Source of the DNA: Octopus vulgaris
Taxonomy: Eukaryota
NCBI GenBank assembly: GCA_951406725.2
Contig: OX597823.1
Coordinates: 22,320,001 to 22,384,000, forward strand
Length of the DNA: 64,000 nucleotides
Direction: 5' to 3'
Part shown: piece after piece, positions 51,537 through 54,561 of the stretch
How the letters are laid out: every line of letters begins with the position of its first letter
Position numbering within the stretch: the first letter of the stretch is position 1
Program-made: the position numbers

Positions 51537-51591
<55 letters not shown>

Positions 51592-54561
51592 TAAACAGTA
51601 AAAATAATTACAGACATGGACAAGAACATGAAACGCCACAGAGACGACACAAGGACCACAGGACGGGACATTCGAAGCCCTCAGTCATCAGTCAAGAACC
51701 AGATCATCTTAGCAATTTCGGCTGATTAATCTTGAGATTGCTCCGATATGGGCAGCCCGCCAAGGGAAATCTAAGCCAAGTGCATTAGATCCCCTGGAAG
51801 AAAGCTTCGAATGTATACAACACGAGGACGGAAAACGAACGAAGTACACGAACAAAAATACAGAATACGTGACAACAATAAGAATACAAAAACGTAAAAA
51901 CAATAACGGTAAAAATAAAGTATAAAAAATAAACAACAAAACAAAACCAGGACGTAGGACAAGGGTCTTTCGACAGGACGAATTGAGTATGGGGCTGGCT
52001 TATGAAGTTGTGCCTAATGGCCACAGGGAGACGAACAAGTACGTGTTGCTTCAGCGGCTGCTGGAACGAAAAGAGCGCTCAACAGCGGCTAGCGGTCACG
52101 TGAGAACAAAAGACAAGAGAAAGGGACAGATGAAAAGAGAGAGAAGGTGGACGAGGGAGGAGAAGAAAGAGACAGATCGAGGGGGCTGGAGGTGAGAGAG
52201 ATAGAGAAACGTAGAAGGGGGGAAGACGGATGGAGAGGGAAAGAAAGGAGGGGGAATAAGGGGGAGAGAGAGAGAGAGAGAAAGAAAGATTAAGAGTCGT
52301 ATCAATGCTTGAGAAAAAATATACTTATCGTATAAGGACAATTGTGGATACGTAGCCGCCGATTATATAGGTAAACAGTAAAAATAATTACAGACATGGA
52401 CAAGAACATGAAACGCCACAGAGACGACACAAGGACCACAGGACGGGACATTCGAAGCCCTCAGTCATCAGTCAAGAACCAGATCATCTTAGCAATTTCG
52501 GCTGATTAATCTTGAGATTGCTCCGATATGGGCAGCCTGCCAAGGGAAATCTAAGCCAAGTGCATTAGATCCCCTGGAAGAAAGCTTCGAATGTATACAA
52601 CACGAGGACGGAAAACGAACGAAGTACACGAACAAAAATACAGAATACGTGACAACAATAAGAATACAAAAACGTAAAAACAATAACGGTAAAAATAAAG
52701 TATAAAAAATAAACAACAAAACAAAACCAGGACGTAGGACAAGGGTCTTTCGACAGGACGAATTGAGTATGGGGCTGGCTTATGAAGTTGTGCCTAATGG
52801 CCACAGGGAGACGAACAAGTACGTGTTGCTTCAGCGGCTGCTGGAACGAAAAGAGCGCTCAACAGCGGCTAGCGGTCACGTGAGAACAAAAGACAAGAGA
52901 AAGGGACAGATGAAAAGAGAGAAGGTGGACGAGGGAGGAGAAGAAAGAGACAGATCGAGGGGGCTGGAGGTGAGAGAGATAGAGAAACGTAGAAGGGGGG
53001 GGGAAGACGGATGGAGAGGGAAAGAAAGGAGGGGGAATAAGGGAGGAGAGAGAGAGAGAGAAAGAAAGATTAAGAGTCGTATCAATGCTTGAGAAAAAAT
53101 ATACTTATCGTATAAGGACAATTGTGGATACGTAGCCGCCGATTATATAGGTAAACAGTATATATATATATATACACACATACATGCATACATACATATA
53201 TATATATATATATGTGTATATTGGCAGGGCTGGCCTGCTAGGTAGCCGGCCAGAATGCTAGAAATAGATCATCAACGATCAAACTACAAGGGAAATTCTC
53301 TAGAGGAAGAATTCAGCGAACACCAGAACCAAATTTGGCGGGCAGGACATATGAAAAATTAAATAAAAAACAGACTTAAATGCATACCTCGGTTTCGGTC
53401 TTAACAAAAGAATTACTTGCATAATTCAAGTGTCCGTGACTTCTTCAGCACATTCGGTCCTCGAGATGCAAACTGCAAGACTAACCCCAGCCCTCTGTGT
53501 CAAGACAGACACGTGCTTAGTCCTACTGATTACATCGGGAATAAAATTTCAAATGTCTTGGTTCCGGCGCGCTAAGAGACTCCTGAAGCGAAGGGCTGCA
53601 GTGAATAATTCACTGCGGGTAAAGCTTACTACTAGGGAACGTATTTATTTAAATATTTAAAAATTGAGGGAGATAAATTAATATTAATTTTAATATCAAT
53701 TTAAAACCAGTAGTCCAGCATTCAAAAAATCTGAGGAGTCAGAGAAAATTCAAATATATGTGTATATTGGCAGGGCTGGCCTGCTAGGTAGCCGGCCAGA
53801 ATGCTAGAAATAGATCATCAACGATCAAACTACAAGGGAAATTCTCTAGAGGAAGAATTCAGCGAACACCAGAACCAAATTTGGCGGGCAGGACATATGA
53901 AAAATTAAATAAAAAACAGACTTAAATGCATACCTCGGTTTCGGTCTTAACAAAAGAATTACTTGCATAATTCAAGTGTCCGTGACTTCTTCAGCACAGT
54001 CGGTCCTCGAGATGCAAACCGCAAGACTAACCCCAGCTCTCTGTGTCAAGACAGACACGTGCTTAGTCCTACTGATTACATCGCTTCAGGAGTCTCTTAG
54101 CGCGCCGGAACCAAGACATTTGAAATTTTATTCCCGATGTAATCAGTAGGACTAAGCACGTGTCTGTCTTGACACAGAGAGCTGGGGTTAGTCTTGCGGT
54201 TTGCATCTCGAGGACCGAATGTGCTGAAGAAGTCACGGACACTTGAATTATGCAAGTAATTCTTTTGTTAAGACCGAAACCGAGGTATGCATTTAAGTCT
54301 GTTTTTTATTTAATTTTTCATATGTCCTGCCCGCCAAATTTGGTTCTGGTGTTAGCTGAATTCTTCCTCTAGAGAATTTCCCTTGTAGTTTGATCGTTGA
54401 TGATCTATTTCTAGCTTTCTGGCCGGCTACCTAGCAGGCCAGCCCTTCCAATATACACATATATTTGAATTTTCTCTGACTCCTCAGATTTTTTGAATGC
54501 TGGACTACTGGTTTTAAATTGATATTAAAATTAATATTAATTTATCTCCCTCAATATTTAA

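What the first reader, a model, noticed from the sequence alone, without database searches (positions are those of the whole stretch)
51585..53160. Head-to-tail dimer (2 x 780 bp plus ~16 bp of a third unit) consistent with a circular or concatemeric RNA template
Seen: the period is exactly 780 bp and the insert ends ~16 nt into a third unit. Differences lie mainly in the purine tract. There is no meaningful ORF, both flanks are (TA)n, and each unit carries one ribozyme motif. Established: metazoan non-LTR retrozymes are tandem HHR-bearing repeats that yield circular RNAs and are thought to be mobilised by PLEs; reported monomers are usually shorter. Inference: this is a large retrozyme-like element. 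In a dimeric transcript the HHR could also assemble in canonical order using the GAAA strand from the next unit.
Basis: partly seen in the sequence, partly recalled or inferred. Interest (0 to 1): 0.7.

Follow-up and report, generated by a model that had tools for sequence, protein, structure and literature searches.

The report
Ribozyme-less 780-bp tandem retroelement-like insert
A non-coding 780-bp sequence sits as a head-to-tail dimer inside a TA microsatellite, most likely copied in by a Penelope-like retrotransposon's enzymes, but it has no hammerhead ribozyme and so is not a retrozyme as defined.

Summary
The anatomy is confirmed. Window 51590-53159 is X(YX)(YX): two 780-bp units that differ by 2 substitutions and 3 small indels, plus 10 to 16 nt of a third unit, non-coding, splitting a (TA)n microsatellite.

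The ribozyme claim fails. Rfam gives 0 matches at E<=10 on both strands of the dimer. The only CUGAUGA, on the minus strand, forms 0 bp of helix II with either GAAA when the unit is treated as a circle. Neither strand folds better than shuffles.

- The window holds a Penelope-like element (RT plus C-terminal GIY-YIG) inserted in (TA)n as an inverted pair with a 49-nt tail.
- A second non-coding element (546-bp unit, tandem plus inverted) lies 62 bp to the right of the dimer, also bounded by (TA)n.

Best reading: a young, ribozyme-less, non-autonomous insertion of the Penelope-like (PLE) type, copied from a multimeric template or by template jumping.

Limits: no sequence link to the resident PLE was found, and copy number could not be checked because no eukaryotic genome collection was available.

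Rivals: later duplication, serial insertions, assembly artefact.

The parts
51455..51589 (.). Left flank: TA-rich microsatellite into which the insert is embedded
   Evidence: TRF rows; sequence
51590..52369 (.). Unit 1 (780 bp), GGTAAACAGT ... CCGATTATATA; sense strand unresolved
52370..53149 (.). Unit 2 (780 bp), 98.98% identical to unit 1
53150..53159 (.). First 10 nt (GGTAAACAGT) of a third unit; 16 nt if the preceding TATATA (53144-53149) is counted
   Evidence: family D3 runs past the unit end
53160..53221 (.). Right flank: TA/CA-rich microsatellite, 62 bp, separating the dimer from element B
52090..52290 (+). Purine (GA-rich) tract of unit 1; its counterpart in unit 2 is about 52870-53070. 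It holds 1 of 2 substitutions and 3 of 3 indels
51685..51691 (-). Not part of a hammerhead fold
53208..54576 (.). Context: element B, non-coding, 546-bp unit. B1 is 53208-53753. B2 is 53754-54083 (330 bp, 99.1%). The inverted arm 54081-54576 is the reverse complement of B(435-546)+B(1-384). (TA)41 follows at 54567-54649
21391..26708 (.). Context: Penelope-like element as an inverted pair. The longer copy is 24318 to 21391 on the minus strand. The 5'-truncated copy is 24319-26659 on the plus strand. A 49-nt tail is at 26660-26708. (TA)n lies on both sides

Best explanation
The dimer is a young insertion of a non-coding, non-autonomous retroelement with no ribozyme. It was made by a Penelope-like (RT plus GIY-YIG) machinery acting in trans.

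Proposed mechanism (inferred):
1. The endonuclease nicks a (TA)n tract.
2. Reverse transcription is primed there on an RNA of the 780-nt unit.
3. Synthesis runs over unit junctions, either because the template is a read-through transcript of a tandem master copy or because the RT jumps from the 5' end of one RNA to the 3' end of the next.
4. It stops 10 to 16 nt into a third unit.

Shown: the X(YX)(YX) anatomy, the (TA)n site, the lack of coding capacity, the lack of a hammerhead, and the presence in the window of a PLE and of a second non-coding element with PLE-type architecture at (TA)n.

Inferred: that the 780-bp unit is mobile at all, that a PLE moved it, and which strand is the RNA.
For: 1. 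Anatomy.
- There are two full units plus a 10 to 16 nt terminal redundancy.
- The same TATATA lies between the units and before the final GGTAAACAGT. The TA hexamer is therefore part of the copied unit, not leftover target.

2. Site.
- The insert splits a TA microsatellite.
- Perfect (TA)>=6 tracts make up only 3.0% of the window, 64 tracts and 1902 bases.

3. A PLE in the same window.
- It matches Pfam RVT_1 (E 4e-07) and GIY-YIG (E 0.0017, below Pfam's cutoff). The search found 1648 relatives at E<=1e-10; all 120 listed scored E<=3.3e-173, many carrying precomputed RVT_1 and GIY-YIG domains.
- It lies in (TA)n as an inverted pair that is 99.9% identical over 2342 nt, with a 49-nt tail at one end only.
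- This is the structure that Craig et al. 2021 describe for PLEs: partial tandems, an inverted 5'-truncated copy, a 30-40 bp tail, and microsatellite bias (PMC8557442, passages).
- Its protein carries a C-x4-C-x2-C stretch (CARSNCGTC) before the GIY-YIG domain. That paper says a CX2-5CxxC linker was proposed to mediate microsatellite bias.

4. Element B, 62 bp to the right.
- It is also bounded by (TA)n and has a tandem arm and an inverted arm, each spanning a head-to-tail junction.
- Multimeric copying of non-coding units at (TA)n is therefore seen twice in about 3 kb.

5. Precedent. [quoted passage not shown]

6. Youth. The dimer units differ by 2 substitutions in 780 bp. The PLE arms are 99.9% identical and the B copies 98.7 to 99.1%.
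Against: - Only this one locus was seen. There is no other copy in the 64-kb window, and no eukaryotic genome collection was available, so mobility of the unit is not shown.
- No sequence similarity to the resident PLE was found, including its 776-nt 3' UTR, its last 40 to 100 nt and its tail. The only above-shuffle local score is a T-rich low-complexity match. Published non-autonomous PLE partners generally share the 3' end, and retrozymes resemble pLTRs.
- No 30-40 nt tail flanks the dimer.
- No similarity to element B.
- The sense strand is unresolved. Analogy with the PLE's outward-facing 3' ends, and a TATATA 3' end that could pair with the target, favour the minus strand. A-richness (A 40%, T 15%) favours the plus strand.
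- Both PLE copies in the window are 5'-truncated. The 746-aa frame has no early Met, and its first roughly 28 residues read into the inverted arm.
Confidence: 0.5

Rival explanations
1. Post-insertion tandem duplication. A single 780-bp segment, either an insertion with a 10-16 bp target-site duplication or old unique DNA between two TA tracts, was later doubled by replication slippage or unequal exchange between its short flanking direct repeats.
For: - X(YX)(YX) is exactly what exchange between the flanking X copies of an XYX ancestor gives.
- Microsatellite-rich DNA is prone to slippage.
- No second copy was seen in the window.
- The differences between units fit mutation after duplication, including a CpG to TpG change.
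Against: - It needs an XYX ancestor with a 10-16 bp direct repeat inside a TA tract, and recombination on very short homology.
- It does not explain why the neighbouring element B and the PLE show multimeric or inverted copying at (TA)n in the same window.
Confidence: 0.2
2. Serial independent insertions of a (TA)n-targeting non-LTR element or its short derivative. Each new copy lands in the TA tract next to the last, and the third copy is extremely 5'-truncated.
For: - Units are separated by the target motif TATATA.
- An Octopus vulgaris repeat survey lists Dong-R4 LINEs as the most numerous LINE group in its table of TE counts (PMC13282606, passage).
- That Dong/R4-type LINEs can target microsatellites is recalled, not tested here.
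Against: - The spacer is the same 6 bp at both internal junctions (52364-52369 and 53144-53149), whereas independent hits in a long tract should leave variable spacers.
- There is no poly(A) or LINE-like tail, no LINE coding remnant, and no tRNA-like head.
Confidence: 0.1
3. A true retrozyme. The unit is transcribed, self-cleaved by a hammerhead (possibly assembled across units) and circularised to a 780-nt RNA that is the transposition template.
For: - The structure is a tandem, non-coding, low-GC (44%) repeat in a genome with PLEs.
- There is one CUGAUGA per unit on the minus strand with a GAAA nearby.
- The size is within the published range of 51 to 972 bp.
Against: - Rfam gave 0 matches at gathering score in the whole window and 0 matches at E<=10 on both strands of the full dimer, which contains every circular permutation.
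- In a circular three-way-junction scan, the only CUGANGA has 0 bp of helix II with either minus-strand GAAA. One-mismatch cores gave 1 hit against a mean of 1.17 in 30 shuffles.
- The heptamer alone is expected about 0.1 to 0.2 times per unit.
- Fold z-scores are -0.53 and -1.01.
- No positive control with a known PLE hammerhead could be run.
Confidence: 0.05
4. Assembly artefact. The genome has one unit, and the assembler expanded it or stacked two haplotypes.
For: - Three of the five differences are indels in homopolymer or GA runs, a typical long-read error class.
- PLE-type structures are said to trouble assemblies (PMC8557442).
Against: - The window has no N.
- The junction is clean, and the terminal 10-16 nt redundancy would remain to be explained even with one unit.
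- A stacked-haplotype join through the flanks would leave a long (TA)n between units, not 6 bp.
Confidence: 0.07
5. Rolling-circle DNA element (Helitron-like) that failed to terminate and copied itself twice.
For: The copies are in tandem with a terminal redundancy, and the insert lies in AT dinucleotide context.
Against: Neither strand has the 5'-TC / 3'-CTRR ends or a 3' subterminal hairpin at the insert ends. These features are recalled; the ends were read. No Rep/helicase remnant is present.
Confidence: 0.03

Closest known systems
Non-autonomous Penelope-like elements forming pLTRs and multicopy head-to-tail insertions (described for Chlamys PLEs, e.g. MRC1 of Chlamydomonas; Craig et al. 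2021, PMC8557442)
   Same: - Non-coding.
- Head-to-tail multicopy insert.
- Sits in a microsatellite.
- No hammerhead.
- An autonomous PLE is present in the same genome.
   Different: - Those elements share 3'-end sequence with an autonomous family. No such similarity to the one PLE visible here was found.
- The resident PLE here has a C-terminal, not N-terminal, endonuclease.
- The host appears to be an octopus-like cephalopod, judging from named hits.
Metazoan non-LTR retrozymes (Cervera and de la Pena 2020, PMC7229834; Li et al. 2026 preprint)
   Same: - Tandem repeats from dimers upward.
- Low GC.
- Non-coding.
- Co-occur with PLEs.
- Unit length within the 51 to 972 bp reported.
   Different: - No type I hammerhead in the unit.
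- No sign of a strongly self-paired RNA.
- No similarity to the PLE terminus.
Canonical PLE insertions (partial tandem plus inverted 5'-truncated copy plus tail)
   Same: The target is the same ((TA)n) and copying is multimeric. The window's own PLE and element B show the full architecture.
   Different: The dimer has only direct copies, no inverted arm, no tail and no ORF.

Membership tests
Metazoan non-LTR retrozyme | Head-to-tail tandem repeats of a short non-coding unit (dimers to multimers) | tested here: met
   2.01 units of 780 bp. No ORF.
Metazoan non-LTR retrozyme | A type I hammerhead ribozyme in each unit | tested here: not met
   Rfam gave 0 hits at gathering score and 0 hits at E<=10 on the dimer. 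In the circular scan, helix II is 0 bp for the only CUGANGA.
Metazoan non-LTR retrozyme | Expressed as a highly self-paired monomeric circular RNA | not testable with these tools
   No expression data were available. As a proxy, fold z-scores of -0.53 and -1.01 give no support.
Metazoan non-LTR retrozyme | Low GC (<45-50%) | tested here: met
   Unit GC is 44.4%.
Metazoan non-LTR retrozyme | Sequence relationship to the pLTR or terminus of a PLE (Li et al. 2026) | tested here: not met
   Tested only against the one PLE in the window, which gave low-complexity matches only. Other PLE families of the genome were not available.
Non-autonomous PLE-mobilised element | Partial tandem (pLTR) or multicopy head-to-tail insertion | tested here: met
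Non-autonomous PLE-mobilised element | Insertion bias for microsatellites, shared with the autonomous partner | tested here: met
   The dimer lies in (TA)n. The PLE lies in (TA)n.
Non-autonomous PLE-mobilised element | 3'-end similarity to an autonomous family | tested here: not met
   Tested against the window's PLE only.
Non-autonomous PLE-mobilised element | Dispersed multi-copy family with 5'-truncated members | not testable with these tools
   No other copy in the window. The only genome collection open is prokaryotic and gave 0 matches.
Helitron-like rolling-circle element | 5'-TC, 3'-CTRR with subterminal hairpin, insertion between A and T (features recalled) | tested here: not met
   The insert ends read GG.../...AGT on the plus strand and AC.../...ACC on the minus strand.
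Penelope-like element (for 21391-26708, context) | A single ORF with RT followed by GIY-YIG endonuclease, and tandem or inverted insertion structure with a tail | tested here: met
   Pfam RVT_1 is above its cutoff and GIY-YIG is just below it. The search found 1648 relatives at E<=1e-10; all 120 listed scored E<=3.3e-173. Inverted pair plus 49-nt tail.

The most novel reading that the evidence does not exclude
The 780-nt unit is processed to a unit-length, possibly circular, RNA without any known ribozyme. This would happen either through an undescribed self-cleaving motif or through host nucleases and ligase. It would then be the first member of a ribozyme-less, retrozyme-like family that parasitises a C-terminal-endonuclease PLE lineage which itself shows no detectable hammerhead in the copy seen here. 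If so, concatemer formation and tandem insertion would be properties of the PLE reverse transcriptase and not of hammerhead or circular-RNA biology.
Probability: 0.06. Interest if true: 0.75.

Novelty: new member of a known kind. Interest (0 to 1): 0.3.

Why it matters
If the reading holds, one 3-kb stretch shows two unrelated non-coding sequences copied as multimers into the same TA microsatellite. A PLE in the same window does the same thing, and no hammerhead is detectable in any of the three.

That would add a cephalopod case to the argument that tandem and inverted insertion is a feature of PLE-type reverse transcription itself, not of ribozyme processing. It would also warn that motif-only calls of 'retrozymes', based on a CUGAUGA plus a GAAA, over-call.

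As it stands this is one locus of an unnamed repeat. It is of interest mainly for transposon annotation.

Tried and rejected
Ribozyme and structure tests:
- Rfam gave nothing on the dimer. The first E-value run listed 46 matches, nearly all lying in the TA-rich flanks and none to a ribozyme family. The whole-window E<=1 run found 167 matches, of which 150 were listed. All listed are microsatellite-driven or similar, none is a ribozyme family, and 17 lower-scoring rows were not shown.
- My own hammerhead scan with strict and one-mismatch cores found no strict hit. The relaxed scan gave 1 hit against a mean of 1.17 in 30 shuffles.
- With helix II >= 2 bp and helix III >= 1 bp, the 780 unit again gave nothing. 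Element B and the PLE gave only long-range 2-bp helix II combinations, which I treat as noise.
- Whole-unit RNA folds were not better than shuffles.

Origin and similarity tests:
- A tRNA-derived origin is not supported: 0 genes in 51000-55000.
- Coding remnants are not supported. Pfam found 0 families for 6 frames. tblastn of the PLE protein against 51400-54700 gave only 16-residue matches at E 0.38 to 1.2.
- Similarity of the unit to the PLE, its 3' UTR, its 3' end and its tail was rejected. The one score above shuffles (36 against 23.9 ± 2.8) is a T-rich run.
- No similarity to element B.

Searches for other copies:
- The window holds no other copy, only GA-rich low-complexity hits.
- A scan of genome contigs (prokaryotes only) with a 25-nt stretch of the unit gave 0 matches.
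- The PLE protein found no confirmed locus in genome contigs (36 pattern matches, 0 confirmed), so no positive control for hammerhead detection in related PLEs could be obtained.

Unchecked:
- bioRxiv supplements are closed, so Li et al.'s supplementary tables were not seen.
- The supplements of Craig et al. were not opened.

Literature:
- Four searches found no report of a ribozyme-less retrozyme-like family in cephalopods. This is not proof of absence.

Full report
OBSERVATION

Reading 51300-53500 shows a TA-rich microsatellite (51455-51589), then GGTAAACAGT..., and the same sequence again 780 bp later. After the second unit come GGTAAACAGT once more (53150-53159) and another TA/CA-rich tract (53159-53221).
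- The repeat finder gives start-to-start spacings of 780, 778 (inside the purine tract) and 780.
- blastn of unit 1 against the window finds unit 2 at 98.98% identity and nothing else except short GA-rich matches.
- A global alignment of the units shows 2 substitutions and 3 indels (-2, +3, -1; 6 gapped columns of 783).
- One substitution and all three indels lie in the GA-rich tract. The other substitution is a CpG to TpG change at 51758/52538.
- No frame exceeds 128 aa, the frames are low-complexity, and 6 of 6 tested frames have no Pfam family at E<=1.
- The window has no N.

THE RIBOZYME CLAIM

The motif is one CUGAUGA per unit on the minus strand (51685-51691, 52465-52471), with a GAAA 28 nt upstream of it.
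- The heptamer occurs 18 times in the window against 10.1 ± 3.0 in shuffles. About 0.1 to 0.2 copies are therefore expected per 780-bp unit on two strands.
- Rfam finds no family at gathering score anywhere in the window.
- Rfam finds no family at all at E<=10 on both strands of 51590-53159.
- I wrote a three-way-junction scan that treats the unit as a circle. It requires helix II directly after CUGANGA and directly before GAAA, helix III from the last A of GAAA, a non-G cleavage site, and helix I back to the core.
- In that scan the only core has 0 bp of helix II with either minus-strand GAAA. The plus strand has no core at all.
- One-mismatch cores gave 1 hit against a mean of 1.17 in 30 shuffles.
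- The 780-nt RNA of either strand folds no better than dinucleotide shuffles. The z-score is -0.53 with 5 of 20 shuffles as good, and -1.01 with 3 of 20.
- The hammerhead core rules and the fact that Rfam holds type I, II and III hammerhead, HDV-like, twister, pistol, hatchet and hairpin models are recalled, not shown by a call.
- I could not run a positive control on a known PLE hammerhead, because one search found no related locus.

SURROUNDINGS

The window is extremely rich in microsatellites and transposon debris. Two neighbours bear on the finding.

(a) A Penelope-like element at 21391-26708.
- A frame of 746 aa on the minus strand (22162-24402) and a 525-aa frame on the plus strand (24312-25889) both match Pfam RVT_1 and, just below cutoff, GIY-YIG at the C-terminus.
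- The search found 1648 relatives at E<=1e-10; the 120 listed all scored E<=3.3e-173. The named ones are from oysters, or from clam-symbiont bins that are evidently host contamination.
- The two copies form an inverted pair that is 99.9% identical over 2342 nt. Their 5' ends meet at 24318/24319 and their 3' ends (...TTTTTCCTTA) point outward.
- The left 3' end abuts (TA)n directly. The right one is followed by a 49-nt unrelated tail and then (TA)108.
- This is the structure Craig et al. 2021 give for PLEs. They also report (TA)n bias in Naiads and a proposed role of a CX2-5CxxC linker in Neptune (PMC8557442, passages read). The protein here has CARSNCGTC in that position.
- Both copies look 5'-truncated. 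There is no early Met, and the first roughly 28 residues of the long frame read into the inverted arm.
- No hammerhead was detected in this PLE either.

(b) Element B, 62 bp to the right of the dimer.
- Between the 53159-53221 tract and (TA)41 at 54567-54649 lies a non-coding 546-bp unit. It is arranged as one full copy (53208-53753), a 330-bp second copy (53754-54083, 99.1%), and an inverted arm (54081-54576).
- The inverted arm is the reverse complement of B(435-546)+B(1-384).
- Both arms therefore cross a head-to-tail junction, and the inverted arm carries 54 nt that the truncated direct copy lacks. It was copied independently.
- Rfam gives 0 hits at E<=10.

INTERPRETATION

Three young structures in one window share a (TA)n target and multimeric or inverted copying: the PLE, element B and the 780-bp dimer. 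One of them encodes the enzymes known to produce such structures.

The simplest account of the dimer is a PLE-type, target-primed reverse transcription of a non-coding RNA. The copying ran over two unit junctions and stopped 10 to 16 nt into the third.

The identical TATATA at both internal junctions argues that the hexamer is part of the template. That speaks against independent serial insertions.

[quoted passage not shown] The kind is therefore known.

WEAKNESSES

- I saw one locus only.
- No sequence is shared between the unit and the resident PLE, between the unit and B, or between the region and the PLE protein.
- No tail flanks the dimer.
- The sense strand is open. The outward 3' ends of the PLE, and a possible UAUAUA 3' end that could pair with the nicked target, favour the minus strand. 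Base composition (A 40%, T 15%) favours the plus strand.
- Copy number could not be checked. The only open genome collection holds prokaryotes and gave nothing.

RIVALS

- Later duplication of an XYX ancestor by slippage or unequal exchange: 0.2.
- Serial insertions of a (TA)n-targeting LINE-type element: 0.1. An Octopus vulgaris survey lists Dong-R4 LINEs as the most numerous LINE group in its TE table (PMC13282606, passage). Their microsatellite targeting is recalled.
- A real hammerhead retrozyme: 0.05.
- Assembly artefact: 0.07.
- A Helitron-like element: 0.03.

COMPARISON WITH WHAT IS KNOWN

It works like a non-LTR retrozyme or non-autonomous PLE in architecture and site. It fails the defining retrozyme test, a type I hammerhead per unit (Cervera and de la Pena 2020, PMC7229834, passages). 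I therefore do not file it there.

Its size is not exceptional. Li et al. (preprint 10.64898/2026.07.22.740005; abstract, Results part 1) give consensus lengths of 51 to 972 bp.

The host is probably an octopus-like cephalopod. The LINE-like fragment at 34366-35028 has its best named hits in Octopus vulgaris at 72 to 74% identity.

VERDICT

The dimer is real. The ribozyme and circular-RNA reading is not supported. The most likely identity is a ribozyme-less, non-autonomous PLE-type tandem insertion (0.5), a new member of a known kind. Interest is 0.3.

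Noticed in passing
window 21391-26708: A Penelope-like element (RT plus C-terminal GIY-YIG, CARSNCGTC linker) lies as a 99.9% identical inverted pair in (TA)n, with a 49-nt tail at the right end only. No hammerhead was detected by Rfam (E<=10) or by my scan in the 2.9-kb copy, although the literature says canonical PLEs carry hammerheads in their pLTRs. Both copies look 5'-truncated.
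   Followed up: partly
window 53208-54576: Element B is a non-coding 546-bp unit. It appears as 1.6 direct copies plus an inverted 0.9 copy that spans a unit junction, bounded by TA microsatellites. It has no Rfam hit and no similarity to the 780-bp unit or the PLE.
   Followed up: partly
window 62475-62948 (minus): Fragment of a mariner-type transposase (Pfam Transposase_1, E 5e-20).
   Followed up: no
window 1-489 (+) and 34366-35028 (+): C-terminal fragments of LINE-type proteins. The second has a weak C2H2 zinc-finger match (E 0.0059, below Pfam's cutoff), and its best named relatives are Octopus vulgaris entries (72 to 74% identity), which hints at a cephalopod source.
   Followed up: partly
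window 8741-8908, 17667-17835, 43491-43651, 57609-57776, 61483-61648 and others: A dispersed repeat family of about 170 bp, at 77 to 90% identity and in both orientations. It is SINE-like in size and copy number within the window.
   Followed up: no
window 56131-56521 and 55161-55581: A minisatellite of 39-bp / 156-bp period (10 / 2.5 copies) and a 206-bp tandem duplication (82% matches), just downstream of the region studied.
   Followed up: no
whole window: Sub-threshold Rfam matches to mir-297, mir-466, mir-3149, mir-1277 and similar families all fall on TA/CA microsatellites and are composition artefacts.
   Followed up: yes
window 1474-1771, 41357-41652, 29906-30161: Near-perfect palindromes of 250 to 300 bp (87 to 96% identity). 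The third overlaps an (AT)n tract; the others were not examined.
   Followed up: no
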